Shown here in pieces: positions 1,124 through 64,000 of a DNA stretch of 64,000 nucleotides. Positions within the stretch are counted from its first letter, which is position 1, and every line of letters begins with the position of its first letter. Origin of the DNA: Marsupella aquatica (lineage: Eukaryota; Plantae; Marchantiophyta); the NCBI GenBank assembly GCA_973895155.1, contig OZ316892.1, forward strand, positions 15,912,940 through 15,976,939, given 5' to 3'. The notes beneath the pieces are model-generated. The model saw nothing but the letters and a program-made list of their open reading frames with translations, did not search any database and was not told where the DNA came from. The position numbers and the translations under genes were made by a program.

Positions 1124-2299
1124 CTCTAATGTGAATCCCTTGGCTACCAACCGAGCCTTCACTAGTACAAAAATGACCCCTAAACCAAAAATGACCCCCA
1201 AAATGTTGCATTTTTTACCGGTGGTCCGATTTTAGTCCAATCGCACTTTCCAATGCTCAAACAGTCAGGTAAGCGTGATCGGACCAAGATCAAAAAAGTC
1301 CAATTCTTTTGGTATTGGAAATCAGGTTTCAATTCAAAAACGATGGCAAAACCATGTCCAATTTTATTAGTATGGCATCATGTGGTCCGAGCACTTCGGA
1401 ATTGATATGCAATGTGCAATGTCGTAAATTGCAAAAGCTAGAATCCGATGACCACGGAAAGTGTGGAGCCGATACTTTTTCTCAATCTAGTGGTGGGCTA
1501 ATAAGTGTGTGTGCAGATTTGAACTCTATTGGTTGGCTAGGTTGTGTGTGCAGTCACCCATCCCAAGTGCTATTCCTCCAACATGGAGCTTAACTATGTG
1601 GTTCTTTACTAGTGCATTGTACATGGAAGCTTGACAATTTTGGTGTTTGATAGACTCTTTGGGACTTTTATACACTTCTAAATTTGTTAAGAGGGCCACA
1701 CTTTGGACCTCGTTTCCAATCCTAACTAACATGGATCACTAAGTCCGTTTAACTCACAATTGGACCCCGATCCCATTCTAGTTGCATTGCAAATCACACA
1801 TCCAATTTAATAACGATTGGACATGCTTCTCCAATCCTTGAGCGCTTGAAAAACTTTATCTATTATTTACGTCACAAGCACAAGTTCTCGTTTCCAATTT
1901 AATCACTCATCAAAATTTCCAATTAAATCCGCATTGAAACATCCGATCTTCATAGAATTGCAACCAGCAATTCCAGCTCCATCGGAAAAATGGGCTTGAG
2001 CTTTTCTTTGGAAAGACGTTTATGATTCATTTAGAATTGAAACAAAATTGGACCATGTGGTCCAATGTTGACTGGCATGGGCAGTGGATCGATTGTGTCC
2101 ACAATTGGATACGGTGTCCGTTTGAAGTTTGAATGAAATGGTGTTTGTCCAATTCAAGTAGAATGGCAAAGTTTGATTTGTGTTACATTGGAAAGTGCAG
2201 TTGGTGATCCAATTGGAATAGAATGACAACTCTTGGCATAGTCGGGATGCAAGAATCAGACTAGGCTGTCGTGACATATAGAGTTGGTAGCATAAGATA

Positions 2300-3273
2300 T
2301 CGAGACATGTATCATATGCATCCAAGTAACCCAACAAAATAGAAAACCAGAAAGATGATACATGGTTGTCCATTAACACCAAGATGAAGAAATGTTGGGG
2401 CATGAAAGTGAACCCATGTATCCCCCCCAGACCTGAGCATGGAAATGGTCAACGGGCTGAGGATGAGCTTGGTGAAGGAGAACAAGAAGGACAAAACAAT
2501 AGCCCTTCCGGAACTTGTGGAAGCTCAGGTCGCAAACAAAAGAGATGGTAACCACCGTTGCAATGGTCACACAACAACATCTGGTCAACATCATCAATCT
2601 TGTGACACACCTTAGAGGGATAATCCACCAGAGGAATCCAAGTAGAAGTCACAATGGTAGGGTCCAAGTTAGGCAAATGACAAGGGGCACAATCTTAGCA
2701 TGATCTTTGAGGGTACGACCATCTGCTCCCTGTAACTCCAACACACCTGAAGGATAGATGCACTGAACCTTGAGAATAATGCGACTGGTTGAGGTATCCA
2801 ATGTGTCACTAGGCTGGCGCTAAAGGTAAACAAAATCACCCACATCAAACTGCCTCACCTTGGGCTTGAAGCTCCCTCCCCGTGTGTGCGCATATCTGAG
2901 TGTGTCACGATGTTGGGCAATGGCTAGGTTGTCCATAGCCATAGGCATGACTCTACGGAACAAGGCAGCCCTCTCTGATATGATAGTAGACCAGGTTTCT
3001 GTTGAGTCCAAGTCCTCCACCTGACGCATTTGAAAAGCAATAGAAGATGGAAGAGATGCCGACCAAAAAGTAGAAAATAAGGAGAGAAGTTGGACAAGGA
3101 GGCATGGTTGGACATGCGGTACTCCATGGCAATGTAAGGCAGTGCCAAGTCCCAATCTTTCTTGTTCTTGGTGAGGCATATTTTTCGCAATCCTTGTTTG
3201 CAGGTATGTACCATCCGCTCAGCTAGACCATCCGCTTGAGGATGATCCCTTGAAGTTCTACGATGATCAATGA
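2300..3273 (-). pseudogene. Ty3/gypsy integrase C-terminus plus PHD finger, PPT and start of the 3' LTR
   Basis: HPQADGLAERMVHTCK, KKDWDLALPYIAMEYR, FDVGDFVYL, PHD-like VCHKIDDVDQMLLCDHCNGGYHLFCL...FCPSC; G-tract at 2421-2430. Confidence 0.85.
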
Positions 3274-5125
3274 AGAAGACAAAGGCCAGTTATATCTTCG
3301 ACCTCGGGTGTTTTGGAACTTCCAGAGTGGATATGGCACAATTTGATGAGTTCTGGACTGACTCTCTCTACTTCCGACCTATTCTTGCTGTGATCCTACT
3401 TTAGGGTGATGTAGAGGTAGAGGACCCAGATTTAGTTTTAGCATATTTGGGGAATTTTGCAGCCTATGCCCTAGATTTTGTGGTTTCTTTTCTCACTGGG
3501 CAGAGCAAGAAACCTACTACTCTGCAACACGACTACATTCCTTGAGAGCCCAAGGTTACACTTGTTTCAACTAGCTCATTTGCTGAGAAACAACGGATCT
3601 GGAACAATGTCACCTCTCAGACTCTGGCCAGCTTCAACCGGTATTTCAGAGATGTCAAATGGAGGCTTCACCCTTTCTATTCCAGGATGCTGAACTCTGA
3701 TGAATTCCTATACCATTATCCCCAAGTATATGCTGCTACTTGTAATAACTATGATGTGATTGGGATGTATAGAGAAGCTCTTCGAATAGACATATGTTAT
3801 CTCAGGAAGAAAATGCCTCTGATGTATCCTGAAAGACAACTGAGATGCCTACCCTACTCCCGAGGATCCCCACGCCAGGCTGAGCTGATCGAAGTTACCC
3901 AGAATCGTACTGTTACCCTTGTGGAGTTACTCGAACCAGATGACATCCGACAGCAAGCTTGAAGAGTAGTCTTAAGTGATTTAGTTAGTTTTAAGAGTAG
4001 TACATCTTTTCTTATTTTTCTAAATGTGTTATAGAGCTTTAAAAGCTATGAGACTTCTTCAGTAGGTAGTCTGTACCTAGGAAAACCTGCTGGCAAAATT
4101 TTAGAGTTTTCCTAACCAGGAGTAGAAAGTTAAAAATAGTTGAATTTGCTAAGTTTTTAAGTGAACCACTTATACGCTTTTACGCTTTTATGCTTTTAAG
4201 GGTTTACGGGTTCATACTTAGCCACTTTTCCGGCTTTTCACTTACTGAATCACCATTTTAACTTTTTGAGAGGTATGAAGAGGCATGTCTTTTCAACCCT
4301 ATGACCTCTTATTCTGTAGATTTTTACTATAAGACCCTTCCACCACTAGTGTAGTTTATGGTTAAGTTATGCATTTTTGCCTCTTCTTTGTGTTAAACTA
4401 GTTGATCATGAATCTATGAGTTCAAGATCAGGTTTAACATTTGGAGAGACTTGCCTCCTTCTTGTGTTTCTACCTATGATTATAAACACAGGAAGTAAAA
4501 TTTCTTTAGTGCGAATCTTTTGAGTTGTAATGACAGATTCCTTGTTGGTGACTCATTGCAATCTCTTGAGTTCTTAGAGTTAACTCATTGAGTTTAAGTC
4601 TTATTGAAATTGATAAATTTTCTTTCATGTTACTTAGTACCATCTAAATGTTGAAGTAGTCACTCTTTTAGATCTTGTCTGAGTACCACTTAGAAAGAAA
4701 AGACAAGACGTGTTGATGGCACTTTAAAAGAGTACTCTAGTAAGCATATTAGATCTGAAAAGCAATATGAATTTGAATCCTCAAGTCTTTTCATTTTGAC
4801 TTATGTCTAAGGAGCAACCTTGGTCAATTCCAGACTCCCTTATCATACTTTAAGATATTTTTGGTGTATTTTGTTAATCATTCTCTTTTCATTAATTTAT
4901 GGTTATACAATGTTGAGTTATCATTGAAAACTACTCACCGCTGTGGAGCGATCTTCAAAATACCTTAGTAAAATAATCAATCCTGATTACTATATGTTAG
5001 AGAGAGTCTTTTAACTCTCATTTGCGTTTTTATGTATCAAATCATCCCCATCTTGTTCTTTACGGGAACGAATACCGAGTTTGAAGACCTATAAGTGTGT
5101 TTTTGGTTCTTCATGGCAAACTACA
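3274..5125 (+). mobile_element. 3' half of a TG...CA LTR-type insertion (ends ...CTACA), now inverted relative to its 5' half
   Basis: Ends in CA directly before the TSD GATGC (5126-5130); the partner end and TSD copy are at 8936/8937-8941 on the opposite strand. Confidence 0.65.
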
Positions 5126-6754
5126 GATGCCATTTAGACTAAAGAATGCACCCGTCTTCTTTCAATGGGTGATGGATCAAGTACTAGAAGGTGTTGATTT
5201 ACTCAAATGCTACATTGATGATGTGTTAGTTCATAGCAAGGGTTTTGAGCAACACTTATTACATCTTGAAGAGTTGTTCAGGAGGCTGAGAAATGTTAAT
5301 ATGAAGATCCATCCCAAGAAGTGTGAGTTTGCTGTTACCTCAGTGGTTTACCTTGGGCATCGAATCATTCCAAATGGCACTATGGCTCATTGGGCTAAAG
5401 TGGTCTCTATTCTTGAGATGCCCAAGCCTACTGATACTCACACTTTGCGAAGCTTCATTGGTCTATGTAATTACTACAGAATTTTCATCTAGGACTTTAG
5501 CATCATTGCTCACCCATTGTACATGTTGCTTAAGAAGGATGTTACCTGGAAATGGACTGAAGACACTCAGGTGGCATTTGAAACTTTGAAGGGAAAGTTA
5601 TCAACTTACCCTGTTCTCAGAAGGCCTGATTTCAGCAAAACATTCATTTTGCATATAGATTGGAGTGCTCTAGGTATTGGTGCCATTCTGGGTCAATCTG
5701 ATGGGGACGGGCGGGAGTATGTCATTGCTTATGCGTCTAGGAGCAATACCAAGGCTGAGAGCAACTACTCCTCTTATGAAAGCGAATGCTTGGCTGTTGT
5801 GTGGGCTGTCATACATTTCAGACCCTACCTGTATGGCACTAAGTTCATGCTCTTTACCGATCACCAGCCACTGAAGTGGTTGATGACCAATGATAAGCTT
5901 ACCGGCAAGCTAGCTCATTGGGCCCTCATTTTGCAAGAATATGAGTTTGAAGTTATTCATAGACCTGGAATTACTCACCAGAATGCTGACACCATGTCTC
6001 GCAGTCCTTTGATCACTTCAACAATTTTTTTAGATGCACGACAAGATTTTGATCATGCTAGTCCTAGCTCTACACTTGGGGCCTCTGCCTATCTTGCCTT
6101 GCTTTGTTGCAACGTTGTTGACCAACCAATTGTGGACATCTGGGAGGATTTGGACACTCTGAATTTCTTGCAGCATAGGCAGTACCCACCAGGCATGACC
6201 ACTACTCAAAGGGATCAGATACAACAATGGTCTAAGCGTTACATGTGGAAGGGAGATCACCTAGTCCGCTGTTTGCCACAAGGGGAGAGAGTGGTTCCAC
6301 CAATTGCTGATAGGGCTGGCTTGGTCAGAAAAGTACATTCTGAACTTGGGCATTTTGGAATCAAGCGTACTTATAGTTTGATGGTTCCTCACTACCATTG
6401 GAAGGGGATGCATACTCAGATTTGGGATATCATAGCTAGGTGTGAACAGACAGAGTAAGAACCTCATTCTCCTCTCGACAACCTATACTTCATCCACTCC
6501 CTATTCAGGGATTGTTTTACCGCTGGTCTTGTGATTTAGCTAGAGAATTACCTTTGACATCCAGGGGTAACCTCTATATAATGATCATGATTGAACACTT
6601 TTCTAAGTGGATTGAATTGGTTGCCTTGCCTGATAAGAGTTCACATAGCACTAGCCAAGCTTTTCTCCAGCAAGTGCTTAGCAGGTTTGGGGCTTGTGCA
6701 AAGTGCCTCACTGACCAGGGTTCTGAATTCAGAGGAGAATTTCAGGACCTACTT
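5126..6754 (+). pseudogene. Ty3/gypsy pol fragment: RT, RNase H, integrase zinc finger and core
   Basis: MPFRLKNAP, YIDDVLV, RNase H (DWS...IGAIL; YSSYESECLAVVWA; TDHQPL), HSELGHFG...C, LTDQGSEF; stops and frameshifts. Confidence 0.95.
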
Positions 6755-8936
6755 CCAACCGGTGGTCTGTTGGCCTGCATAATCTTACAGGTCTCCACAT
6801 ACCTGTGCACTTGGGACTCTAGGTGTCTCGGGTATCTACTCTCGATGGTGGCATTCCGGGGTGTTTGAGTAGATGAGGTGACAACTGCTACTAAGTTTGG
6901 ATTGGATCTTAAGGCAATATCAACATCTTCAAATCCCTGCCTTGGGGATGACTCAAGAGAATTATCATAAGATCTATAAGTTTCACCATCTAAGGGTGGA
7001 TCAGAGTCTTTAGGTAGATCTTCTCTGACGTAAGGGTGCTTATACTGTGACCGAGTGTAGGTGGGTCCTTCTGTGGGTACGTAGTTGGAATTTGGACTGT
7101 AAGGTCGTGAATCTGGGCTAAGAGTGGGACTAGCAGTTGGACATTGTTGGATCAAGTTGCTGACCACGAATGCTATCTGTCGAGGTTCACACTGAAGTAT
7201 TTCCAGCAAGTCATCCACAATGGCTACACAGCTGGTACTACCTGCTACCGGAACAAGTTCACTTGTTTCTAGGGAAGGGGGCTGTACAGGGGCAGGAGTA
7301 CAGATCACGAACTCCATTGGTGCTGGTTCTCTTGGGGGAGAGGTCATTCTGACAAGACTTAGCTGATCATGAAATGGTGATCTCAAACTAACAACCTCCA
7401 TTCTCAAATTACTAACAGCATCATATAGTCCATCATCACTGCAACTGAGGAGAGATGTCAACTTATCAATAAGCTGTTGATTCGACTTTGTCTTCAAAGG
7501 AGTGGACCTGGTGGTCACATGAGGAATAGCATCAGTTGGTGTAGCAACATTGTCTTGTTGATGAATGCTCCTTACTCCTTCAGCTTCTAGTGAATCTGCA
7601 CCTATGGTCCGACTGGGAGAATGCTCATCACTCATTGGATGGTAATCAACTTCCCTGCTATGCATAGGAGAATGTGTAGGGACTTCTAATGAAGTATCCT
7701 CCATGGGAACATCAGCATTCTCCTCAACGTTCTGATCATTCGAATCCAATGGGGTGACATGTACAATGTCTTCCATGGGAATTTCTTCTTCAATACCCAG
7801 GTCAATCAGGAGTAACCCTCTCTCCATTCTCTCTTCAAAATGTAAACAATCATGGGTATAGTAGAGCTGAGACAAATAACTCTGCAAGCAAGTGGGTCTT
7901 CCTGCCTCCAGACACTTCAATTGATCTTTCATAACATTAAAAATAAGGCCCAATTCACCTGGATAGCTCCACTGTGAGCAGCTACAATAGTATTTACCAG
8001 GGCTACAGGACAGAGGGTTGGCTTCTTTGGGTGAAGAATCGGCATTAAGAATTCTAAGAGAACTCTCAATTCAGGATAAGCACATTGTGTCAAATTCCAA
8101 CCATTCTTGGTATTTCAAATTCCTTAGAAGTAAGGCGTGGATAAATCTTTCTTCTTAGAAAACAATACCTCTCCCTCTGATGAGCAGCCAAAGGCATAAG
8201 CAATCTGCTCAACTGTCCACAAACTCGGACGAGCTCGAATGGTCTGTCGAAATTCAATGGGGATAAGCGACCCCTTCACAAAGTCTTGTAAATAAGTATC
8301 GAGTTCCACATTCTAGGGGATCTCCAGTAGACGCTTTAGTCCTAGCTGTTGTAAAGATGCCTGTAAATTAGCGCAGCTATCGGGCACCTGTGGAATTCGT
8401 GTTACTATATCCCCCGTGGAATTGCTAGAGCTTCAACGCGGTACTGCTTGTCAACACCCAAGTCTGCCATAGCTCAAATTCTACTCTGTGTGCTACGCGA
8501 AGATTTTTCTGGGTCAACTGAGGTGAGAGGTAAGGTGGAAGGATAGTTAGGAGTGAGCGCCCAGGTCCTGCATCGCCTCTCCTTCAAGGTGCGCTCCCCA
8601 TCCCGTTGCGAAGTCCCGTTGGAGTTAGCCGTAGCACGTCACGATCACAGGTCTCATCGCAAACACTCAAGTCATAAGGAGTGAACCCATATACCCGTAA
8701 AACTCTTAAACGTGTATACCCCTAAACTCGTAAACGTGTATACGCATAAACACATATACCCGTAAACCCATAAAGTTGTAAACCCGTCAACGCGTAATGT
8801 AGTTTACCCGTAACTTAGGCAGAGTTTAATTGGAGTGCAGTTTACTCTATAGTTATCAGCAAGTATAGTTTGAATACTTCGAAAATTTAAAAAAATTATG
8901 TTTTCTTCATGCCTTTGGAATTATTGACTACTTACA
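6755..8936 (-). mobile_element. 5' half of the TG...CA insertion, carrying a long accessory ORF of unknown function (403-aa ORF 6742-7953 plus upstream remnant to ~8470)
   Basis: Starts TGTAAG on the minus strand after the TSD; the ORF has no RT, integrase or gag motifs; degenerate short CCCGTAAA repeats at 8680-8810. Confidence 0.6.
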
Positions 8937-9015
8937 GCATCACCAGCCATTCCCACAATCGATTGCTCCCATAAAAAGCTGTCTTCTTACGGTCCTCAGC
9001 CCGAATAATGATCTC
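8937..9015 (-). pseudogene. Ty3/gypsy RT fragment (PEDRKKTAFYGSNRLWEWLVM)
   Basis: Nearly identical to 46907-46985; continues directly into the sequence at 5126. Confidence 0.85.
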
Positions 9016-42697: not shown

Positions 42698-44606
42698 AGG
42701 GAGTTACACGGTAGATAACAGAGAGTGGTTGACGTTTTAAATTTTGCTCGGGAAAGTCTACAGGACTGCTCAAGTTGAGTCAAGGTTTGTATCGTTTACA
42801 TAGATTATCGTTCCCTTGGTCTAGAACAGATTAACCATGTCGAGAACCTCAAGTTACATTCAATATCCTTCTAGAAATACTGCTCATTGACAAGATAATT
42901 CTATCTCGTTGGCGTCATGAGGCTGGGTGACTGGGATTTGAGACTTCCGAATGTGATTTCTGGGTGTACTCTTCTTTGTCCTACGGGGAATATGTACACG
43001 GAGGGTTGCTGATCTTCTGCAGCATGACAGTTCTGCAATGACCATCATTTATAGACAATCAATGATGTACAATTTTATTTCCACGCCTCCCTGCCCTTCG
43101 GATGTTTGGCTTGGTGTACAGGCTTTTGGTAAGGAAAAGAAGAGTTGATCAGGGAGAAAAGAATTCGTTGCAGCTAGTATAGGGTTTAGTTTGGAACTCT
43201 ACCCTCAAAATTCACGGCTGTTGTCGTCCCAAGCGGAGTTTTATTATTCTGGAATCGTTATTTTCCAAAATTAGATTGGCATATCATATGGTTGCTCCCA
43301 AAAGAAGGCCAAAGGGATTGCACAAATTACTTGTGCAGTATGAAAGACTATAATACACTTTGCGCATTTTTTTTGCCGTGGTCCTCATTTAAAATAACAG
43401 GGCAGTTATTTTTTTGCCGGGGTCCTCATTTGAAACAATAGGGCAGTCTTGGGTGAGAAAATTTCAAACTGGGAAAAACAGAACCATTAAGACCAAAAAA
43501 ATGGAATTGAAATGATGACAAGAGGGATGCACTGTGGTGCGGTGTCCGTTTCCCAAGGCTTGAAGGTTGTTGGATCCTCACTTCGGTCGACATTGTTTGG
43601 GGCATATGGATGTGGCTTGTTGCACATGAGGGACACTTTGTTGGCTTGAAGAATGTAAAAAAGACACCAAAATAATCTCATTTTTAGTGTGTATTGTGCA
43701 GATGGCAAGGTTATATTGTCTCCTTTTGGTGCCCCACTGCAGCCTCTATGCAACAAGCTTACAAGGCAAGACAATATTTGAAAGAATTTTTGCAACAACA
43801 TAAGTGGCAATGTAAGGCAATGCTAGTCCCAATCTTTCTTATTCTTGGTGAGGCATATTTTCCGCAGGTTTGTACCATCCGCTCAGCTAGACCATCCGCT
43901 TGCCCTTGAAGTTCTACAATGATCAATGAGGGCATGGTCAAGTAAGTCGTGAAATTCTCCTATGAATTCAGAACCCTGGTCAGTGAGGCACTCTGCACAA
44001 ACCCAAAACCTGCTACGCACTTGTTGGAGAAAGGCTTGGCTAGTGCACTATGAACTCTTATTAGGCAAGGCAACCAATTCAATCCACTTAGACAAGTGCT
44101 CAATTGTGATCATTATATAGAGGTTACCTCTGGATGTCAAAGGAATTCTGCAGCTAAATCACAAGGCCATCGATAAAAAAATCCTTGAACATGGGAGTGG
44201 ATGACGTATGGGTGGTCAAGAAGAGAATGAGGTTCTCACTATCACGCTATTCACACCTAGCTATGATATCCCAAATCTGAACATGCATCCTCTTCCAATG
44301 TTAATGAGGAGCCATCAAACTATAAGTAGGCTTGATTCCAAAATGCCCAAGTTTGGAATGTACTTTTCTGACCAATTCAGCCCTATCAGCAATCGGTGGG
44401 GCCACTCTCTCCCCTTGTGGCAAACAATGGACTAGGTGATCTCCGTTCCACATGTAGCACTTAGTTATTGTATCCGGTCCCTTTGAGCAGTGGTCATGCC
44501 TGGAGGGTACTGCCTGTGCTGCAAGAAATTCAGAGTGTCCAGGTCTTCCCAAATGTCCACAATTGGTTGGTCAACAAGGCTACGACAAAGCAAGGCAAGA
44601 TAAACA

Positions 44607-45969: not shown

Positions 45970-47699
45970 GGCCCCAAGTGTAGAGCTAGCACTAGCATGA
46001 TCAAAATCTTGCCGTGCATCTGAAAAATCTGTAGAAGTGATCAAAGAACTGCGAGACATGGTGTCAGCATTCTGGTGCATCATTCCAGGTCTATGAATAA
46101 CTTCAAACTCATATTCTTGTAGAATTAGGGGCCAATGAGCTAATTTGCTGGTAAACGTATCATTGGTCATCAACCACCTGAGTGGTTGGTGATTGGTAAA
46201 GAGCATGAACTTAGTGCCATACAAGTAGGGCCTGAAATGTATGACAGCCCACACAACAGCCAAGCATTTGCCTTCATAAGAGTAGTTAGCCTCGTTATTA
46301 CTCCTACACGCATAAGCAATGACTACTCCAGCCTATCCCCATCAGATTGACCCCAGAATGGCACGACCTAGAGCACTCAAATCCATGTGCAAAATGAATG
46401 TTTTGCTGAAACCAGGCCTTCTGAGAACAGGGTGACTTGATAACTTTTCCTTCAAAGTCTCAAATGCCACCTGGGTGTCTTCAGTCCATTTCCAGGTAAT
46501 CGCCTTTTTAAGCAAAACGTACAATGGGTGAGCAATGATGCTAAAGTACTGGATGTAAATTTTGTAGTAATTACATAGACCAATGAAGCTTCTCAAAGTG
46601 TGAGTATCAGTAGGCTTGGGCATCTCAAGAATAGACACCACTTTAGCCCAATGAGCCATAGTGCCATCTGGAATGATTCGACGCCCAAGGTAAACCACTG
46701 AGGTAACAGCAAACTCACACTTGGGATGGATCTTCATATTAACATTTCTCAGCTTCCCGAATAGCTCCTCAAGATGTAATAAGTGTTGCTCAAAACCCTT
46801 GCTATGAATTAACGCATCACCACTGTAGCATTCAAGAAATCAACACTTTCTAGTACTTGATCCATCACCCAGTGTAAGAAGACTGGTGCATTCTTCAGTC
46901 CACATGGCATCACCAGCCATTCCCACATTCGATTGCTCCCATGAAAAGTTTTCATTTTACGGTCCTCAGCCCGAATAATGATCTGGTTGAAGTCTTGTCA
47001 CAAGTCTACAAGGGTAAAGATGTCAGAATCTTCAATGGAGTCAAAGATCTCTTCAATGATAGGCATGGGGTACCTGTCTTGAGGTGTGACCAGATTGAGT
47101 GGCCTATAGTCCCCGCACATCCTCTTCTCTATCCATAGCCCACTAGAATCTTTGTTGGCATCACTATAGCTACTGCAAAGTCAAATTGGAGGGCTGGATC
47201 AGACCTGCTTCATAAAGCTCTTTGCATTTCTCATCCACTAGCTGTCACTCATGCTTGCTCAACCAGTGTCTCCACCTATAAATAGGTCGCTCATTGGTCA
47301 GCTCAATGGAGAATTGCATCACCTTACAAATGCCCAAGTCTCTCATTGAGAAAGCAAACACATCCTCCTAGCTCAACAGCAAATTCAGTACCTGATCCCG
47401 TTGCTTCTTACTCAACTGATTACGCATCACAAATTGGAAACTTGCAATGCATGGCGTAGAGCTAGTGGGTGTACTAGAAGAACCTGATGTGCTTGCCTCT
47501 TTGCCAGGTGTGATCTGGTCCATGCCATGCTCTGATTTTGAAATTTCAGTCACATTACAGGCCAGGGTACCTCTCCCCCCCCCCGAACACTAGGAGTGAG
47601 ACGTAGAGTGGAGAGGATGGGATTTGTACTTCATCAGGGTGCCAGGTAAGAACTTCATTAAGGCTAGAGGCCGGGTCACCCATAGTAGGAACAAGATGC

Positions 47700-48650
47700 A
47701 TCTGGAAAATAATACAGTTAACCAAAAGCCATGTTAGCTTTAAGATCCATGAGACTAAGAAGAGAATTTCTCTGGGCCTAGTCACTTTAATATGACCAGT
47801 AGTGCCAGTTTGGAAACCCATAGCTCACTCTTGCTCCTCTAGGGCTTGGCTCATCCCATGTATCCAAGGTGTGACGGTTGACCAACCCTGGTCCATCCCC
47901 TTGGAAGACATGGGCTTCAGGAAATGAAACAAAGGTAGGCCAATGGTGTTAGCAGGGTACCAAGGTGCTCTCTCTTGCCAAGTGACTGGCTGACAAGAGC
48001 TATTAGCATCCAAAATTTGGTCCACCTGTAATGTAGGGTCCATGACTATATGTTTTAGAGCCAACTGTAGTAAGTTAACCAATGCAATATTTGTCCAGAA
48101 ATTATGCAACCAGTGCGCATAAGATCCATATTGGGCTGCATCAGTCAAGAACGGTGGACCAAGATAGTGTTGGACTTGAAGGAAATCCTCGTGGATGTTC
48201 TTCCGCTGGCCAATTGAGAGGGTGTGTTCTCAATGACATAACCAACACCAGGGTAACAAACCTAGGCCCAGTTGAGTATATGTACCGTCCAGGTCCATGA
48301 AGAGTGCTGATCGGGGATCACTCAAACCAGCTCCAGAACCTGCAATAGAGAAAGCCTTGGCATTCCCATCCAACAATGATGAGGTCCAAGGAACCAAGTA
48401 GCTCTATGTGTTGCTGTTGTATCAACTGAACATCAGGAGGAAATAGAGTGAAGCTTTCCATGACTAGGTGGAAACTGCTGTGGGAACCTAGCTGAAAATT
48501 CTAGCATCCGTGATTGAGCCACCTTCCTTGCATATGGGTCAGTGTCCACATAGATGTACCTCTTCACCATCATGCCAGACTGCAAGACCCTCTCTAGGCC
48601 TGTAGAAATGTCACCAGAAAGCTCCATCAATGAATGTAACACCATCTCGA
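47700..48650 (-). pseudogene. C5 cytosine DNA methyltransferase domain inside the gypsy polyprotein region
   Basis: Motif I-like MELSGDISTGLE, YIYVDTDPYAR, motif IV DLIIVGWECQGF/SIAG...LSDPRSALF, motif VI GYVIENTP, motif VIII-like DAAQYGSYAHWLHNFWTN, motif IX-like AMGFQTG; frameshifted. Confidence 0.85.
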
Positions 48651-50330
48651 GGAGGTGTTCAAGTGATTAGTGTGCTAAAGACTGGGATGATGGGCTAACC
48701 ATGGCTTTGTAGGCCCTCACATTGCTGCAGAGCAATAGTCAATGGGTCCATGGGCAACTCTTAGCCATGTACAACCTCAGGTTGAGGAGCTAACTGAGTA
48801 GGTGCAGCCCATAAGCTCTCATTTGCTTGCATGATAGCCAACTCCTCTTCATCTTCTTCAATCCAATCGTGCAATGAATGATTGACATAGGAAACGGTAT
48901 GCACCTCTTTCAACACACAGTAGTGAGCACTAGGGGTATGTTCCCCATGTAAATCCAGTGGAATGTAGCCCAAGCACATGTCATCAGTTTGGCAATCAAC
49001 CTGATGGTATGCATGCTCAAACCAGTTATCAATGGTAAATCCTGGCGGGAACTAAGCTCTAGGTCTTGGCAAGTAAACAATGGAGTAGTGAGAAATTGGT
49101 GTGCCATGCCTGAAATATGAAATGGAGATTTTACCATATGATTAGTTTTTGGTGATGCACCTGGTCGATGTACATTTCCCACTACTGAATTCAGAGTTGA
49201 GGCACCTTTTGGCAAAGAAGCTATATCACTCCTACCTCCCCTTGCCAACAAGGTAGCCTCTGAGGTTGGAGTAAGTGGTCAAAATAACTGTGGTATGGTA
49301 GCTCTGGCACCCCTAGACTGTGTGATAGGACTAGATCCGGAGGCAAGGCCTCAGTTGCGACTACCCTCCGGTTTGTAGTTGTGGCCACACTAGCTTGCTG
49401 GTATGCAAAGTATGAGGGGCAAAATGAATCTGAGAATTCACCAGTAAGACCAGATGTGGGAGTGGGACCAGCAACGTACTCTCCAGCCATGGCATCTTAA
49501 GGGAGGTTGTAGAAGGACTGTGGAAACGTTGTAATATTGCTACTTGCAGGAGCACAAACCACAGGTTGAGCATGACCTCCTGGTTGTACTGATTTTCCTC
49601 GGAGGGATGCCAATTGAGCGCGAACTGCCTCCAGTAGCTTGAGCTTGAAGAACCTCCTTCTGAGCTTTCTCTCTTCTTGGCATTCTTGTTGAAACCAGCA
49701 GGTTTGTTGCACGATGAAGGAACAAAGGCAACACTCCTCTTGGACTGTGCAACGGGAGAAGGGGCAACGGTGGGAGTGGGCTGGTGCCTCAAGTTCTTTC
49801 ACTTTGGAAACTTCCAAATGTCAGACTTCCCACTAAACAATAGAGCTCATCCATAGGGATATCACATTCATTAGCCTTATGATCCCAATTCCCATGGTAA
49901 TTACAAAAAGGGACAAGCATAGGTGCAGAATGGGCATGCTTAACTCGTTGGGGTTGTACTATTGACCTACCAGATGTTGGGGTAGGAACCAAAGGCCTGG
50001 TTCATGGTCCACGATGTGACTGGCCTGATAATGAGCATGGGCAAGCTCAATCTTCTCTGCAATTTTGTACACTTGAAGAAGAGTGTAAGAATCCCATGTT
50101 GTGCAAAGACCTGATGTAGCACCTGCAAATGGAGTGAAGGGTTACTCTCAAGCACATCAAGATAACGGTTTGCAACCTCTTGGTCTGTGATATTGTTGGT
50201 ATCCTCCTTCAACTTGAACAATCGTTGGTACATCATCTTCAATGTTTCATCCTTTTGTTGCATGAATAGCAAGTTGCATTATCTGCTCTGAGCTCTTCAC
50301 TGGAAACTTGAAAGAACTCATGCACCGGAT

Positions 50331-50670
50331 GAGGTGTTTACAAAAGACAGCAAACAGAAAACATGATTTAATAACAGAAACTGGTAACAGGAAAAAAAAT
50401 TGATAACAGGAAAATGGGTGGAAATTTCTTTTTGAAATTATTTTTTTGAGAAAAAAAAAGTTGTTTTTTTTTGTCGACCAGTTTTTTTTGCTAGCGCCCA
50501 AAGCTAGCCAAAAATGTTGCATTGTTAATTTTTTTGGAAATAACATGTTTTAGGAGATATTTTTAAATTGTCATTTTTCCCGGTAACAGTGATTTTTTCC
50601 TGGTAATAGCATATTAAAAACAGGAAAAAAAATTCCTGTTTACCTGTTTCCTGTCTCCGTCGCTATACCC
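50331..50670. mobile_element. Non-autonomous mini-derivative of the MULE-like family (340 bp)
   Basis: 8-bp direct repeat CACCGGAT on both flanks (50323-50330, 50671-50678); its ends match the two different ends of copy 2 (56279 and 50731); one palindrome-like motif at 50492. Confidence 0.8.
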
Positions 50671-51379
50671 CACCGGATCAAGATACACTGGTGTATCAAT
50701 TGTGCGAGAGATACCTATGGTAGCTAGAGCGGGTATAGCCACTGAGACAGGAAACAGGAAAACAGGAATTCTAGTACCAGAAAAACAGATGTTGTTATCA
50801 AGAATATGTTTCCGATACCAGGAAAAACTGGTCTTTGCAGCAGGATTATTACTTCATTACTTCTAACCAAAATTAGCAATATTCACTGTGCTTCATTTAT
50901 ATTCTAGAGCTTAGAACCAACTAACATGCCAACAATTGTTGTCTGATGATATCAATGTGAGTATGGAATCATCAACAACTTGTTGAATATATGTCCCAAA
51001 AATTCCAAACACACAAACATTTACCCTTGAATGCCAAAGGAAAAAACATCAATATGGTAGGTCCCACCCTAATTCACTTCATATTATATGCACACAAGAA
51101 GACCAAAAACCAGGAATGAAAACCAAGGACAATATCAAAGACCACAAACGGAGGACTAGCGCCTGGCGCTAGCTAAAATAAAAACAAGCAACACACCCCA
51201 AAAATGACAATTCATGAATGGACAATGTTGGAAACCAAACTTTAAAAAAATCATTTCAAGTGGATATACCATGAAGTAAATCACAATAAGGAAGACTTTC
51301 ATCCCAGCGCCAAGCGCTAACATAGAACTATACCATTGTAATACGACAAAAAAACAATATAATCGTTTTGAGTATAGGA

Positions 51380-54360
51380 CCGTGCGCGTTTTCCCTCTCC
51401 AAGATCAGTCGAACTTCTCCAATTGTGAGAATTGGTTGGTCAAAGTAGATTCCTCAACGTCTAGTTTGAAAACGGTCTAGAAAACCCAGTACAAATGTTT
51501 GCAAGGCATATATGGCTGTCTGTGAGAATGTTGACGGTAGAAATCCTCACACGAACATGTTGGGAAAATGCAAATCTGCACAAAGTAACTATTCGGCGTT
51601 CTTAGATTCTCATGCGTCTATACTTTGAATTGCTTCCCCCATGAGTTCCCTATAGAAACATCCCACTATCCCTGGACGGACATGGTCTCTTTTTGTGCAG
51701 ATTCAATCCTCTTCATGTGACCATGGGTCAAGGTCGATCGAGGAACCGTGTTCTTCCCATTCTGACTTCGGAGACGAACTGTGGGTTCCAGAAGATTGAC
51801 CCTCTCTGGAAATAAGTTGACATTGATTTGAAGGTCAAAAAGTGATGGTGGAGTTAGAGGACCGTGTCTTCCTTGGACTATAGGTAGTCCCTGGTCAACA
51901 AGATACTTCATCTCAGCTTCCAGAACATTTGTTCCTTTTATAGCAGGAAGAACATCAGGGAAGGAGGGCAGGTTTACTACACCACGACCGGGATGGCTCC
52001 TATATACTGTTTGGGAGAAAACCATCAATATTATTGTGTAATCATATGTTTGTCAAAATAAATGACTATATCTTGTCAGTCTATGAAAATTGATTACATT
52101 CTTTGGATGTGGTGCTCAGGAATTGAATGTTCAGGAATGGAATTGTATTGTACTTCTACAAGGGAAACCGACTTGCATATTACTAGCGCCAGGCGCTATT
52201 ACTCACCAAGCGAATAAAATTTCCCCATTGCCTCCAACGCACAACCCACCATGATATCCAACTCTGAAGCATACAAAGCTTTCCGGGGTAAAAATGAAAA
52301 GCGTCTGTCCGCTCCCGTTTAGGGTTTGGGTGCCCTCCAAAAAAAACATTCCGAACTGCTAACCATTCGGCTTGGGCATTGTCTGCCATAAAGCCATGAA
52401 TAGTTGGATTATCTAACCCATTCTCTTTGGATACCTCAGTCATTAGTCTCCAAGCCTTCTCAAAGGACTCTGTGTCTTCAGCTTTTAGCTCGCAAGTGAA
52501 TATCGTACACAACGCACAGTAGTTGTGATCGTAAACATGTGCGCTGAAAGTCACCCAATCCTTTGTCATTTGTTTCATGACATCGAAGCTTACCTAGGGA
52601 CCTTCAAGGCTCCCTCCAGGTTGCATTTGCCGCAAAAGATCCACCCTTGACCCATGGCCTTTGGAAGTCATCTTGAATATGTGAGGCCTGTCTTCTTGAG
52701 ACCTGGAAGGATGGACCTCTGGAGAAAAGGCATGTTGATATTCTTTTCAAAGTCAAAGTCAAAGTCAAAGTCAAATTCTAAGCTCCACGACGACCCAATG
52801 AGTCAAGGGAGCTGTGGCAAAAAAGCCAAATACAAAGCAAAGAATTGAGCCAAATGCTCATGTGAGGATCTCTACATCCTCACATGAGCATCGTTTCCTA
52901 TCCACTGCCATGATATACAATCCAAGTTGCTTTGGTGGCAACCTAAATAGATCATGCAGATCAGAAACAAGGATTTGATGTGCTATTCGAACCTCCTCAT
53001 ACCGTCTACATGCTATGAATACATGATATTCATTCTCAATGCTGCCACTATCACAAAGTCTACACACCCTATCCTGTCTCCTAATTCCCTTCCATCTACC
53101 CTCCTCTACCTCCAAGTGATGTGAGCTGAGTCTATATCTAGCAATCACTTGTCTCAATCTCATAGAAATGGGAGCTCTAAGATACTCTTGTTCTTCATAC
53201 AACACATCATGGGGTTTACATCCCTCATAAAATATTGTAATCTAGGGCTAGGATCACTCCAAAGTTTTCTAATAGCTTTATCACGCAAGAGTGACCAAAG
53301 CTTTTGATATCAAACTAGAAAATCCAACTCTCCATGAACTTTCTGGTCCTGCCTAACACTCCTGAAAAGAGATGCAAACTTCTGTGGAGTAGAAACTACC
53401 ATTAGAGACTGGAAAATTTATGTTTCTTCAATATCTTGAATATCACCCAGGCTCTCACACAAAGATTGTACAAAAGATGTCGTCGCTACATTTTTAATCC
53501 CGGCAGGCGTCGAAGTTGGATTACCTTCCAATTTCTTTTTTATGACATCTTCAACCACCATTTCCGCACTCCGAGAAAATACCTTGCGACAAGGATGGTT
53601 GTGCATACCCATATGAATCGCTAGGTGAGACATGTGACTACAGGTATCTGAGTCAAGCAAAACTTGAGGATACATATAAAACAATCTTGCAGAGCATGCC
53701 TCTACACAAAAAGGGATCTGCTGGCAATAATGACAAATGACTCCACCCTGGTCAATGAACGATCCAACACGGTGTGGCCCTCCAAGCTTAGGGGTACCAT
53801 CCCAGGCCTTTGCATTACTCCTCTTCTTTTGGCGGAAATAGTCACAAGTTTTATTCCTGCACTCAATAAATCCAGTACATGTAACTTTACACCAAATTCC
53901 TAGTATTTCTTGGGCTGCACGTTGCAGTGGTAGGAAATATTCTAGTCCAAATGTAGCAATCCTTGGACCGGTGCATGTCCCAGAGACGGGATCCTTTTGA
54001 AAGAATCCCTGGCGATGGAGGCAACTCAAACACTATGTTACCATTGTACTTTGGCGGCAAACAAGGTACTTGTTCATGCCAAAATTTTCCAGCCGCAATG
54101 AACCTCGAAAGTTTACTAGACCGATTTGACTTCAGCAACGCGTTCATTGCACTTCTCCGATACACAATCTGGGAATGCGACGATGGCTTCTCCTCCTTGA
54201 CCAAAACCATGTCAGGCGCTAGCGGCTCCACAAGGGGGATCCTTGGTGGCTCCTCCTCATCACTATCAGAAAGAGTGACCACATCCACCGGAGCCCTTGC
54301 TGGGGATTGATGGGGAGTGCCCATGTACAGATCAAAGACCGATATCCAGGTACATGTCAT
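51380..54360 (-). pseudogene. MULE-type transposase, copy 2
   Basis: YNGNIVFELPP, CHYCQQIPFCVEAC, HMGMHNHP, HVYDHNY, GFMADNA, TDAFH, WWVVRWRQWGNFIRL with the same intron donor, SWIM remnant ~51480-51580. Confidence 0.85.
52749..53303 (-). mobile_element. 5'-truncated RTE/RTEX-like LINE inserted in the copy-2 transposase
   Basis: Nearly identical to 44607-45192 apart from one indel; (TTTGAC)4 tail; TTGATAT on both sides as a possible TSD. Confidence 0.9.
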
Positions 54361-54470
54361 TACATCACTTCTTTATTGTTTGTGCCCGACGCTACTTTGG
54401 TGTTTGTTGTAGTCCTCGAGACATTGCCCATCGATTGATAATTTTACAATTTGGATTGCGATGCGTGCAG

Positions 54471-55375
54471 GTATTTACCCTCAGGCTTGACATATTTTGC
54501 CGGATTTCAAGGGAAAAGGTACCAAAAGAATCCAAGGTTTAAGCCTTTATCAATAACCAAAGATCCTTCGATCTCTAACTTGATTGGGCTTCCAACTTTG
54601 AAGACAGATCATTGCAGTCGATTATAGAGCTTTTTACTCTCCCCAAAGATATTGTCCTTGACTGGACTGTAGGTTCAGGAAGCACATTCATTGCTGGGGA
54701 TTTTTCTGGTCGTTTTGTGATTGGGTTGGAAAATAGGCGTGATTTTGTTGAGTCTGCATCAAGGGTTTTCTTAGAACTTCTTGATCCCAAACATGTTCCG
54801 ATACTGCCTCCTCCCCCGACCCATATAAGTGGTTGCAAAAAGAAAGATAGGCTCTCATCTGTTCTGAACTTTGATTCCGATGAAGAGGAAGATACTCCTG
54901 GAGATGTTGGAGGTGGCATAGAGAAAACCCAGGAGGAAGAATCTTTGGAGAAGAGCAAAGACTCGACGAGTAAATTTTGTCCAGTAAGCTTCTTTATCCT
55001 TTTGAGAGTTGTTTACAATTCTGGGTTCTTATTCTCTCTTCCCAAATACTTATTTTTTTCCAGTTTACTGGATCAGGTCAGAATGGAATCTGAGGAAGTG
55101 TTTCCAACTCCGGAGGAGACTAGCTAGGAATGTAATTGTCACTCCTGAAAAACCGTTTGTTTTGCCCTCATACTCCAAAAATGTCGTGAGGAGGGTTGAC
55201 AAAATTAGAACACTTTGTTGGGAAACAAAAGGTCTTTGTCTTCAGAGGGGAGCAGACAGGAAGTTCATGAGGAACCCTTATATAGATGATCTCAAAGAAA
55301 GTACATTGATGACGAGGCCGAGTCCACAGACAGATCTGAAAGCTCTGGATCTGAAACATCGGATAGTTTATAAGT
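54471..55375 (+). pseudogene. Methyltransferase-like gene, copy 2 (last two exons)
   Basis: SIIELFTLPKDIVLDWTVGSGSTFIAGDFSGRFVIGLENR; final exon SEWNL...TPEKPFVLPSY...RGADRKF homologous to 26697-27021. Confidence 0.8.
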
Positions 55376-58070
55376 AGCAAGGGGGCTAGCTTCAAATACC
55401 TGATTGAAGGTTTCAATATGTAAACTTTTTATCACAATGGCCAATTTTTGGCCCTTTTAAGTTTAAAGTGACTTCATTGTCACTAGCGCCAGGCGCTCCT
55501 CAAATACACAGTCACTCTTGTATTTTAATTTCCTAGCCTTGAAGTTGATTTGTAAAGCCGTATCCTCAGTACAAATGTTTGCTAGCGCTAGGCGCTCCCC
55601 AATTTTCTGAGGGGACTTTGTCGTGGAGTCTCTCTAGGTTTTGGTTGCAAAAATGTTTTTGTTTCCATTTTGATTTTGTCGTATTCGATGAACGGTCTTT
55701 CAACGGTCAGGGTTCAATGTCCCTTATTTATGGATTTTGTGTTGCGGTAGTTTGGTATTACTTCAGGACCTTTCACATTATCCCCGGCTTTCATGCTTGC
55801 GCATTTTGTTCGAAGTGCTATGAAATCACTTCAATCTCATTTTCTTTTCAATGGGAAACCGCGGTGAGGGCTTGAGGGATATTTGGGGAATACGTGGTAG
55901 CGTCAAGGATGCGAGAGACCCAAAGCAACTTCATCCAACTCAAGTACTAGTTAACTGTACATATAGTTTTGATTGCTTGGACCCACATCTTCAATCATAG
56001 TTTACGTAGTCTGATTTTATATAGGCCGCCTTTTGTTTTCTTGTTGGATGCATAACATTTCATAACCCCCTTCATTAAATATCCTCCTAGTGTGCAATTG
56101 GTATATATTATCAACTCTTTGCAGCGCCCGGCATGAGCATTATCCTTGGAGGATAGTGCTCATTTCCATGCAAAAATTCACAATTTTGATACTTTTACCT
56201 TTTTGACAGCGAGAACTCTTGTTACCAGTTTTTGTTATTAACTCCTGTTTGTTGCTTTGGTGTCTTTTGTAAACACCTTGCCTTGGGCCAACGCCTCATG
56301 GTGCACATACCTTGCCAATTGTTTGAATGGAAAGACAACAGTGTAGTGGTTGTACTTGAGCTCCAACTCATACACAACTCTATAAAATGCTACTTTGAAT
56401 TCCCGTAGAGAAATGGTGCCAGGCTGGCCACTAAACTTCCCAATTTTGCTGGATGAGTTGCTAGCCTCCATTCTGTACACTGGTGGAATTGTTGATGTTG
56501 ACAATGGAGCTGGGAATGTGTTGGTCAGAGCTGAAAGGGGTGTACAAACCTGATTGTGGTTGAATAGACAATTGAGAAACCTGATATGATGTAGGTGTTG
56601 GAATCACCTGATGTGAGCTTCCTGCCCCAACAGATCCAGAAGAAGGATTCTGGGTGTGTCTCCTTCTAAATGATCTAGCTGATTTGAGAGGGATAGTCTC
56701 TAACAGGTGTCAGTCACTTTGGAGATGGATGGCACCAGGATCCTTGTTAGAGTCACCTGAGCTCATGCTGATGTGACATGCTCAAAGAGATCACTCAGTA
56801 TTCCTCTAAACTTCAAAATAGAGACCAAATCCCTAAAATCTGCATGAAGGTGTTTCAACTCTTCAACACATATTTCTCTTGCTAATAGATAACAATATGT
56901 GAGATAATCATGAGAAGATGAAGCACTAAAAAACACTCCTAATGAGCCCTTACATGCCCCAAGTCATTGAAGCAAACAGTAAAGATCAAAGTCAGAAATT
57001 TGCAAAATTATCCCAAATTTGCGTTTCAGTGAAGTCAAAATGTTGGCAACTGTATCTCACTTGCTAGAGCTTTGTTTTCAGAGTTCTTATATCAATCTTG
57101 TACGCCTCAATGAGAGCTTTCCAACCATGCTAAAAGCTCCTACTCTCGTCAAATGGTTGAAGAGTTATGACCAGAAGCGCTCAAAATGGCGTTTTGAGAA
57201 CTAACGATGACATGAAAGCTTGTGTTAGGCTTGTCCTAACAAGCGTGCACAGAGCATGGTGGTGGGCAATGATAACCATGCACTCTTGCACGACATTATA
57301 GAGCTTTGCCACTAGATCTTAGATTTTTTACCACGCTCAATACATTATGGTCAGATTAGAATGTTGCTAGATGGAATTATTGTTGAATTGGGGGATTGAA
57401 TCTTTCTACTAGTAGTATCATAATAACCGTTGAAATAGGCTGACAAAGTTCTACAATGCATTGTTTCCCCCATTTCTTACCCCTTAGGATCGCTTTTGCC
57501 TTTTGGGCATGGTTTCCCTCTTTGTGGGGTTCAAGCGGAATAAATGGAAATTTTAAAATTGTTGGTAATGGTAATGGTAATGTATTATAAGCTCCGGGAC
57601 CATGAAAGTCAAAGGAGCTGCCACAAAAAGTAAAGTACAATGCAATCAAAGAAAAGAGCAACCAAAAGAGATTGCTCAGAAGAGGACAACTATGTCCTCA
57701 AAGAAACTATGGACCTAGAGAGCCCTATGGACCTAGAGAGCCCTGAAAGATTTTCCAAACCTATTCTCCTTTCCCTATCCACCGCAAAGATATATCTTCC
57801 AAGTTGTTGAGGGGGCAGACCAAACAATGCATACAAATCTTTCACCAAGATTTGAGATGCCATCCTAACCCCCTCATAAAACTTGCAAGCAATGAATACA
57901 TGATATTCATTCTCTATACTAGAGCTATCACATAGTTGACAAACCCTCTTTTTCCTGTCAATATCCTTCCATCTCCCTTGTTCTACTTCAAGGTGGTGTG
58001 AGCTTAGTCTATACTGAGCAATAAGTTGTCTAAGTTGTACTGAGATAGTGCTAGATAAGTATTCTTGTTC

Positions 58071-60911: not shown

Positions 60912-60923
60912 GGTCCCAATCCA

Positions 60924-63220: not shown

Positions 63221-63270
63221 AGGATGTTCTCACAAGTACTTAATCACCTTAATGGAACAACAAATTTCAA

Positions 63271-64000
63271 CATTCTGAGCTTGGGGCGAAATTTCACTTC
63301 GAGTTGGAAGGGCAATCGGCTGCGGTTTAAGCTCAGACTTTGCCAGAGCATTGGAAACAACGAGAATGTATCACTGGCAAAGTTAGAGCTGCAACCGACA
63401 TCGTTTGGTATGCACTTTAGCATGCGCGATCTGCTACGTCTCCAGTTTCGCGATTCTGAGCTTGGGGCAAAATTTCACTTCGAGTTGGAAGGGCAATCGG
63501 CTGCGGTTTAAGCTCAGACTTTGCCACAGCATTGGAAACAGCGAGAATGTATCACTGGAAAAGTTAGAGCTGCAACCGACATCGTTTGGTATGCACTTTA
63601 GCATGCGCAATTTGCTACGTCTCTAGTTTCGCGATTCTGAGCTCGGGGTGAAATTTCACTTCGAGTTGGAAGGGCAATCGGCTGCGATTTGAGCTCAGAT
63701 TTTGCCAGAGCATTGGAAACAGCAAGAATGTATCACTGGCAAAGTTAGAGCTGCAACCGACATTGTTTGATATGCACTTTAGCATGCACGATCTGTTACG
63801 TCTCCAGTTTCGCAATTCTGAGCTTGGGGCAAAATTTCACTTCGAGTTGGAAGGGAAATTGGCTACAGTTTAAGCTCAGACTTTGCCAGAGCATTGGAAA
63901 CAGCGAGAATGTATCACTGGCAAAGTTAGAGCTGCAACCGACATCGTTTGGTATGCACTTTAGCATGCACGATCTGCTACGTGTCCAGTTTCGGGATTCT
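63271..64000. repeat. 181-bp tandem satellite array, reverse orientation relative to 351-1123; runs off the window
   Basis: GCAACCGACAT recurs at 63391, 63572, 63753 and 63934; reverse complement of the left array. Confidence 0.97.

What the first reader, a model, noticed from the sequence alone, without database searches (positions are those of the whole stretch)
47700..48650. Ty3/gypsy retrotransposon with a C5 cytosine methyltransferase between gag and RT
Seen in sequence: ordered DNMT motifs I, IV (GWECQGF, with WEC in place of the usual xPC), VI (IENT), VIII and IX, co-oriented with pol. Established knowledge: DNMT-encoding retrotransposons are described in charophyte algae and dinoflagellates, so the idea is not new, but it is unusual in land plants. 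Inference: the element may pre-methylate its own cDNA. This copy is frameshifted.
Basis: partly seen in the sequence, partly recalled or inferred. Interest (0 to 1): 0.72.

Follow-up and report, generated by a model that had tools for sequence, protein, structure and literature searches.

The report
Dead retrotransposon carrying DNMT3 methyltransferase
This is a broken copy of a jumping gene whose family, shared with a liverwort and peat mosses, carries a DNA-methylating-type enzyme domain that likely marks the element's own DNA; such elements were described in a freshwater alga, and my literature searches found none described in land plants.

Summary
Minus strand 48646-47696 is a Dnmt3-type C5 cytosine methyltransferase domain inside a Ty3/gypsy element, 72% identical to a Calypogeia fissa Gag-protease-DNMT-RT protein. 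This copy is dead: 9 frameshifts, 2 stops, damaged motifs I and VIII, protease core deleted, two nested insertions, 3' end lost. The domain is a family trait. Among 80 metagenome loci, RT follows it in 61 of 62 testable and protease precedes it in 61 of 67. dN/dS is 0.09-0.50. 'WEC' is common in the family (128 of 214), and the catalytic Cys is invariant. Relatives occur in Sphagnum, Closterium and, with DNMT placed after RNase H, Chlamydomonas eustigma. Moss-type relatives have A-coding-B-A-B repeats like KnitGypsy-Dnmt3, plus 4-bp target duplications, which fits integration from a two-LTR circle. Raw frames give no PF00145 hit; relatives do. Self-methylation of cDNA is likely but untested, and the Klebsormidium enzyme was inactive in yeast. 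This scan found the same family before in peat-moss-like genomes. Verdict: new member of a known kind.

The parts
47696..48646 (-). Dnmt3-type C5 cytosine methyltransferase domain, broken (9 frameshifts, 2 stops)
   Evidence: 219 of 305 aligned residues identical to P0012 residues 944-1267; profile scores; family profile and fold closest to DNMT3A/B
48351..48371 (-). Motif IV GWECQGF with the catalytic Cys
   Evidence: Read from the sequence; Cys in 204 of 204 family rows
48223..48234 (-). Motif VI IENT
   Evidence: Glu in 203 of 204 rows
48092..48118 (-). Motif VIII; both conserved Arg positions are substituted in this copy
   Evidence: Arg in 195 of 204 rows at each position; the window has Trp and His
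56289..56471 (-). 5' piece of gag with start codon
   Evidence: 71% identity to P0012 residues 1-62
50332..56278 (.). 5.9-kb element with terminal inverted repeats inserted in gag
   Evidence: Inverted repeat 50332-50392 / 56217-56278, 87%
49054..50309 (-). Rest of gag, zinc-knuckle region and spacer, broken
   Evidence: tblastn with P0012 residues 157-594
48647..49051 (-). Protease-to-DNMT linker; the protease core is deleted at about 49052
   Evidence: P0012 residues 595-808 have no match; other copies in two runs continue differently at 49051
45971..47358 (-). Reverse transcriptase and RNase H, broken (3 frameshifts, 4 stops)
   Evidence: Pfam RVT_1 and RT_RNaseH; 287 of 384 identical to P0004
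44605..45970 (-). 5'-truncated LINE inserted between RNase H and integrase
   Evidence: Matches 52760-53303 and 57771-58980; the full copy has Exo_endo_phos and RVT_1
43805..44602 (-). Integrase (H2C2 and part of the core), truncated; no PHD, polypurine tract or 3' repeats follow
   Evidence: Pfam Integrase_H2C2 and rve; similarity to the second copy ends at 43805; no G-tract found
57288..57295 (-). Candidate left end of the element (TGTCGTGC, like the family's left end); weak
   Evidence: The motif occurs in 52 of 2000 shuffles of the 1289-nt leader
2267..9014 (.). Second, rearranged copy of the family: RT-RH-INT at 5126-6754 (+), RT piece 8937-9014 (-), integrase end, PHD finger, G-tract and B-repeat end at 3274-2267 (-); its DNMT part is not in the window
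   Evidence: 88-92% identity to the main copy; PHD 34.7 bits; G-tract and B start match L002

Best explanation
The stretch is a dead copy of a Ty3/gypsy family of bryophytes whose single Gag-protease-DNMT3-RT-RNase H-integrase-PHD polyprotein carries a selected Dnmt3-type methyltransferase domain, which in intact members likely methylates the element's own new double-stranded cDNA before it integrates. Shown: domain identity and order, spread across liverwort and moss, purifying selection, death of this copy, and in moss-type relatives A-coding-B-A-B repeats, TG...CA ends and 4-bp target duplications. Inferred: (1) the true LTR is B+A; reverse transcription, likely self-primed, gives BA-coding-BA; the ends join into a circle; integrase opens the circle at the internal CA-NN-TG site (about 0.65). 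(2) The enzyme is active although Glu replaces Pro before the catalytic Cys (about 0.7). (3) Its main substrate is that cDNA or circle, probably at CG (about 0.45 overall), so new copies would arrive already marked like host heterochromatin. (4) The PHD finger would steer integrase to nucleosomes with an unmodified H3 tail (about 0.5).
For: Identity: family profile hits DNMT3A best (E 8.1e-15; HhaI 1.1e-5); the model of the Calypogeia domain matches DNMT3A/B best (E 7.9e-11). Family trait: P0012 is one frame from Gag through DNMT into RT; P0075 has all domains in 2300 aa. In 80 loci: gag 48 of 52 testable, protease 61 of 67, RT 61 of 62, RNase H 52 of 52, integrase 42 of 42, PHD 33 of 35. Selection: dN/dS 0.09-0.50 in 9 of 11 pairs, all upper bounds below 1, 2 saturated; RT-RH 0.09-0.46 in the 8 pairs run for both regions. 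Catalytic columns are conserved. Window, Calypogeia and Sphagnum form one clade, 100/100, matched by the RT tree. Repeats and target duplications. A related retrotransposon Dnmt3 (SymbioDIRS) methylates CG de novo in yeast (PMC5890265).
Against: No call tests activity or substrate. KnitGypsy-Dnmt3, the closest described element, gave no methylation in yeast, although human DNMT3B failed there too. CpG depletion does not point to self-methylation: observed/expected is 0.16 in the DNMT region and 0.09 in the neighbouring LINE, which has no DNMT. Only 2 of 80 loci lack a stop in the main DNMT segment, so the moss-type copies seen are mostly old. The model has mean pLDDT 67.6, with 84 of 324 residues under 50. 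The repeat structure was seen only in relatives: both repeats in 6 of 20 testable loci. The self-priming match is above chance in 3 of 6.
Confidence: 0.5

Rival explanations
1. The enzyme is active but acts mainly after or around integration, on the insertion site or the new copy, guided by the PHD finger much as the ADD domain guides animal DNMT3 (recalled).
For: DNMT and PHD travel together in both domain orders. The PHD of the second copy is closest to WSTF, ATXR5, KDM5 and BAZ2 fingers, several of which read unmodified H3 tails (recalled).
Against: In order A the DNMT is far from the PHD and is probably cut off by the protease (inference). No data on methylation of flanks.
Confidence: 0.2
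2. The domain is kept for DNA binding or another non-catalytic step, such as holding or joining cDNA ends, or for RNA methylation, and the Glu-Cys motif marks a changed chemistry.
For: Glu precedes the Cys in 128 of 214 rows. The Klebsormidium domain was inactive on yeast DNA.
Against: Cys 204 of 204, Glu of motif VI 203 of 204 and both Arg 195 of 204 are kept. Pro and Glu swap repeatedly on the tree (8 changes among Pro, Glu and other), as expected of a tolerated change.
Confidence: 0.25
3. It is a one-off capture or nested insertion of a host DNMT3 gene or an unrelated methyltransferase.
For: The window is full of nested insertions, and raw frames have no Pfam match.
Against: The same fusion occurs in Calypogeia, Sphagnum and 61 of 62 testable loci. 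The domain is colinear with P0012 without introns. No DUF3444, typical of host plant DNMT3 (PMC6453930), was found in P0012 or P0075.
Confidence: 0.02

Closest known systems
KnitGypsy-Dnmt3 of Klebsormidium nitens (de Mendoza et al. 2018, PMC5890265; I read parts 1, 3, 4 and 5 of 7 of the main text with legends and searched the three readable supplements; the supplementary figures file could not be read)
   Same: Gypsy domain set, intronless Dnmt3 in the Pol frame, purifying selection, and repeats arranged as in DIRS-type elements (A-coding-B-A-B), seen here in moss-type relatives.
   Different: Hosts are land plants. I saw no K. nitens sequence or domain order, so I cannot say whether its DNMT position, Glu-Cys motif or PHD finger match. 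The passages I read do not mention target duplications, self-priming or a circle.
SymbioDIRS-Dnmt3 of Symbiodinium (same paper)
   Same: Dnmt3 domain in Pol; split repeats; shown to methylate CG de novo in yeast.
   Different: Tyrosine recombinase element; this family has a DDE integrase and 4-bp target duplications.
EpiLTRs of Cymbomonas and Euglena (bioRxiv 10.64898/2026.05.21.726589; passages read)
   Same: LTR elements with a cytosine methyltransferase and a chromatin-reader domain.
   Different: Their DNMT is sister to DNMT4 and comes with a DAM and a chromodomain; the authors set it apart from streptophyte Gypsy-DNMT3.
Host DNMT3 of non-flowering plants, PpDNMT3b (Yaari et al. 2019, PMC6453930; passages read)
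   Same: Unrearranged Dnmt3-type catalytic domain; de novo CG and CHH methylation shows what such an enzyme can do in a bryophyte.
   Different: Stand-alone gene with DUF3444. No plant host DNMT3 was in my trees, so the donor is not resolved.
Ngaro, PAT, VIPER and TATE split-direct-repeat elements (PMC6681497; passages read)
   Same: A1 at the 5' end; B1, A2, B2 at the 3' end.
   Different: They use tyrosine recombinases.

Membership tests
C5 cytosine methyltransferase (PF00145) | PF00145 match above the curated cut-off | tested here: inconclusive
   Not met by the broken raw frames; met by the closest relatives, 27.1-36.5 bits against 22
C5 cytosine methyltransferase (PF00145) | Motifs I, IV, VI, VIII, IX-X in order with catalytic Cys and Glu | tested here: met
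   motifs I and VIII are damaged in this copy and conserved in the family
C5 cytosine methyltransferase (PF00145) | Pro-Cys dipeptide in motif IV (recalled consensus) | tested here: not met
   Glu-Cys here and in 128 of 214 rows; Pro-Cys in 70, of which 9 are the SPC type that includes the outgroups
C5 cytosine methyltransferase (PF00145) | SAM-dependent 5mC formation | not testable with these tools
   Needs an assay
Dnmt3 clade | Closest by sequence profile and fold to DNMT3A/B, unrearranged motif order | tested here: met
Dnmt3 clade | Nested inside eukaryotic Dnmt3 rather than beside stand-alone phage-like enzymes | tested here: inconclusive
   One insect DNMT3A and nine unnamed stand-alone enzymes as outgroup, with a long-branch warning; the nearest Atlas clusters include phage ones
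Ty3/gypsy retrotransposon | Order gag, protease, RT, RNase H, DDE integrase | tested here: met
   protease core deleted in this copy
Ty3/gypsy retrotransposon | Two identical flanking LTRs | tested here: not met
   No repeats in this copy; relatives have split repeats with TG...CA ends and 4-bp duplications
KnitGypsy-Dnmt3-type elements | Intronless Dnmt3 in the Pol frame of a Gypsy element | tested here: met
   P0012, P0004, P0075
KnitGypsy-Dnmt3-type elements | [quoted passage not shown] | tested here: met
   0.09-0.12 for three pairs, 0.24-0.50 for six, two saturated
KnitGypsy-Dnmt3-type elements | A-coding-B-A-B repeats | tested here: inconclusive
   Met in relatives (both repeats in 6 of 20 testable loci); this copy has lost its 3' end
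KnitGypsy-Dnmt3-type elements | Direct sequence kinship with the K. nitens copies | not testable with these tools
   No row named K. nitens; supplementary figures unreadable

The most novel reading that the evidence does not exclude
This is one ancient lineage of green-plant gypsy elements, from chlorophytes to mosses and liverworts, that self-primes, integrates from a two-LTR circle cut inside the LTR by a DDE integrase, and methylates that circle with its own Dnmt3 enzyme using a non-canonical Glu-Cys active site. The methyltransferase has moved once within the polyprotein, and elements like it could be a source of de novo methylation independent of the host's enzymes.
Probability: 0.3. Interest if true: 0.8.

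Novelty: new member of a known kind. Interest (0 to 1): 0.52.

Why it matters
DNMT-bearing gypsy elements were described from one charophyte alga. These data put the lineage in a liverwort, two peat mosses, a zygnematophyte and a chlorophyte, under selection across that depth. Naturally unbroken domains from culturable plants make an open question testable: why does a retrotransposon keep the enzyme that silences it? The split repeats with target duplications also point to integration from a circle, which would be unusual for an LTR element. The copy in this window is a fossil and adds range, not function.

Tried and rejected
No whole genome is held for this window. Pfam on raw frames found no methyltransferase, and phmmer of the main frame piece against the PDB found nothing at E 10. 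No relative in viral contigs: 0 of 74 pattern matches confirmed. No terminal repeats for the main copy: 12 comparisons between its leader, its downstream flank and the flanks of the second copy, 11 below the shuffle maximum and one marginally above (30 against 27). The moss A repeat does not match the window. An 11-nt inverted pair in the leader (57166/56867) could be a self-priming signal but was not tested against chance and is within what I would expect by chance. CpG depletion does not separate self-methylation from host methylation. No RNA holder listed. No tRNA gene in the window. The clean A/B split of the quick tree weakened in the careful tree: one long-branch B row fell outside, and order A is a grade, not a clade, when rooted on the outgroup. 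Literature: 'KnitGypsy' occurs in 1 paper; Sphagnum + retrotransposon + DNMT3 + DNA methyltransferase in 0; the liverwort and bryophyte searches and the broad ones listed no title on land-plant elements of this kind, and none on a gypsy with split repeats. I opened only the papers named in this report plus PMC12344493, PMC11982613, PMC6317226 and PMC12885004 (passages; none describes such elements in land plants). Subscription journals are not searched.

Full report
Observation. Translation of the minus strand shows C5 methyltransferase motifs in order between 48646 and 47696, spread over three frames. Pfam finds nothing in these raw frames but finds RT, RNase H and integrase downstream on the same strand. 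A search with one 217-residue frame piece returned 8 proteins among 438 candidates; the four best carry PF00145 above its cut-off. A profile of seven relatives scores the window at up to 158.8 bits, against at most 1.3 bits in 10 codon-shuffled windows.

What the enzyme is. The family profile hits human DNMT3A best among solved structures (E 8.1e-15), then DNMT3B/C and DRM, with HhaI and DNMT2 near 1e-5. A model of the Calypogeia domain (mean pLDDT 67.6) matches DNMT3A/B best. The window aligns to Calypogeia fissa P0012 at 219 of 305 residues, with 9 frameshifts and 2 stops. From 342 stored proteins, 320 have the domain; after dropping most fragments and near-duplicates 214 rows remained. Among family rows with a residue in the column, Cys of motif IV is present in 204 of 204, Glu of motif VI in 203 of 204, and each Arg of motif VIII in 195 of 204. 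Glu precedes the Cys in 128 of 214 rows and Pro in 70. So WEC is inherited, whereas the changes in motifs I and VIII are damage in this copy.

The element. P0012 maps the window's element from a gag start at 56471 to RT. A 5.9-kb inverted-repeat element splits gag, the protease core is deleted near 49052, a LINE fragment sits between RNase H and integrase, and similarity ends at 43805. Contigs of five public runs (two coded organisms) cover the region with diverged copies. Among the 12 indel rows shown in each call (124 and 44 more not shown), indels fall within about 10 bases of 5 of the 9 DNMT frameshifts. Loose ends at 49051 translate, by hand, to the end of the protease of P0012. The breaks therefore look private to this copy. 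A second, rearranged copy at 2267-9014 supplies the integrase end, a PHD finger and the G-tract.

Host. Not named. The nearest protein is from a leafy liverwort (70% to P0012 against 61-63% to moss-type rows). The window's LINE end translates to peptides like those that end two Calypogeia proteins. A G2-like transcription factor gene with introns lies at 40444-42697 (class recalled). A leafy liverwort is my inference.

Family and range. P0075 has protease, DNMT, RT, RNase H, integrase and PHD in one 2300-residue frame, with a Gag-like start. Named relatives come from Sphagnum compactum, S. magellanicum, Calypogeia and Closterium and Chlamydomonas eustigma. Of 320 proteins, 27 fit order A (DNMT before RT), 145 fit order B (DNMT between RNase H and integrase) and 148 were left unassigned, mostly fragments. 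A library-wide search gave 463 clusters at E 1e-30, of which 150 were listed. In the careful DNMT tree (49 rows) window, Calypogeia and Sphagnum form a clade at 100/100, all element DNMTs stand apart from the outgroup at 100/100, and 15 of 16 order-B rows group at 95/99. The RT-RNase H tree separates 6 order-A from 48 order-B rows at 100. One capture followed by one move of the domain is the simplest reading, but the root is weak.

DNA of relatives. A metagenome scan confirmed 435 of 593 pattern matches and kept the best 80. Several are repeat assemblies of one insertion, so counts are not independent. Most are probably peat moss: P0004 is 93% identical to the S. compactum protein. Protease precedes the DNMT in 61 of 67 testable loci; RT follows in 61 of 62, integrase in 42 of 42, PHD in 33 of 35; RT or RNase H lies upstream in 0 of 80. 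Pairwise dN/dS on the DNMT is 0.09-0.50 in 9 of 11 pairs (window against L001: 0.12, interval 0.07-0.18), with 2 saturated, similar to RT-RNase H.

Ends. Relatives show A-coding-B-A-B: a B pair in 15 of 34 testable loci, an A pair in 11 of 20 (two of these at only 67-69% identity), both in 6 of 20. This is the arrangement given for KnitGypsy-Dnmt3. Ends read TG...CA. The B1|A2 junction has a 2-base spacer between the two end motifs in 16 of 28 loci with a G-tract. Of 8 distinct sites with both ends, 4 have a perfect 4-bp duplication, 2 have one mismatch, 1 has two and 1 has none (L031 left out because its upstream motif is an internal one). I found these features before reading earlier notes. 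Two notes then gave the reading that the LTR is circularly permuted and priming is by the RNA's own 5' end. I tested both. The A2|B2 junction joins the end of A to the first base after the G-tract in 6 of 6 loci, exactly in three and within two bases in three. The 12 bases after A1 are complementary to a site inside A1 at 11-12 of 12 in three loci (0 of 300 shuffles each) and at chance level in three.

Mechanism. Shown: anatomy, range, selection, ends in relatives. Inferred: the polyprotein is packaged with the RNA and cut by the protease; self-primed reverse transcription makes BA-coding-BA; the ends join; integrase cuts the circle after each CA of the internal junction and inserts it with a 4-bp duplication. 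The Dnmt3 domain most likely methylates this cDNA de novo, so new copies look like host heterochromatin or start out quiet. The PHD finger resembles WSTF, ATXR5, KDM5 and BAZ2 fingers and would guide target choice. Against: no activity data, a negative though inconclusive yeast test for the Klebsormidium domain, and no sign of self-methylation in CpG counts. From memory, replacing the Pro before the Cys in M.EcoRII slowed the enzyme without abolishing activity; no call checked this.

Novelty. The kind is known from K. nitens (PMC5890265), and a 2026 preprint still lists it simply as streptophyte Gypsy-DNMT3. My searches found no description in land plants or chlorophytes, within the library's limits; the unread supplementary figures of PMC5890265 may show the domain order and motif. 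This scan noted the family in other, peat-moss-like genomes. I file it as a new member of a known kind, interest 0.52.

Noticed in passing
window 54579-55127 (+) and 25942-26574 (+): Two diverged copies of a DNA transposon-like element each carry a piece that passes the Pfam cut-off for N6_N4_Mtase (29.9 and 28.4 bits against 26.7). Atlas neighbours are bacterial and phage N4/N6 methylases. Over 60 codons the differences fall 18/8/34 by codon position. No canonical (D/N/S)PP(Y/F) motif was found in frame with it. Marchantia has N4-cytosine methyltransferases of prokaryotic type (10.1101/2021.02.12.428880, passages), so a transposon-borne relative in a probable liverwort deserves its own follow-up. 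One paper search found nothing.
   Followed up: partly
window 50332-56278 and about 18400-27000: The element with terminal inverted repeats encodes, on the minus strand, a Cys-rich protein with Mutator-like DDE motifs (by eye, recalled; no significant Pfam hit). The two copies share 45-70% protein identity.
   Followed up: partly
window 2267-9014: The second gypsy copy is rearranged: its RT-RH-INT middle lies on the opposite strand to its flanking parts, with unrelated DNA on both sides.
   Followed up: partly
window 351-1193 and 63265-64000: 181-bp tandem repeat arrays at both ends of the window, in opposite orientation, 91-95% alike.
   Followed up: no
window 58071-60923 (-), with pieces at 44605-45970, 52760-53303 and 1-209/61410-61617: A LINE with an unbroken 950-codon endonuclease-RT frame; two near-identical 5'-truncated pieces of a related family are inserted in other elements.
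   Followed up: no
window 40444-42697 (+): Intron-containing host gene for a G2-like (GARP) transcription factor, ending about 1.1 kb from the element's broken 3' end (class recalled, weak Myb hit).
   Followed up: no
proteins P0008, P0027, P0199: Some order-B relatives add further domains: a Tudor-like domain, a chromodomain (precomputed PF00385) and a G-patch.
   Followed up: no
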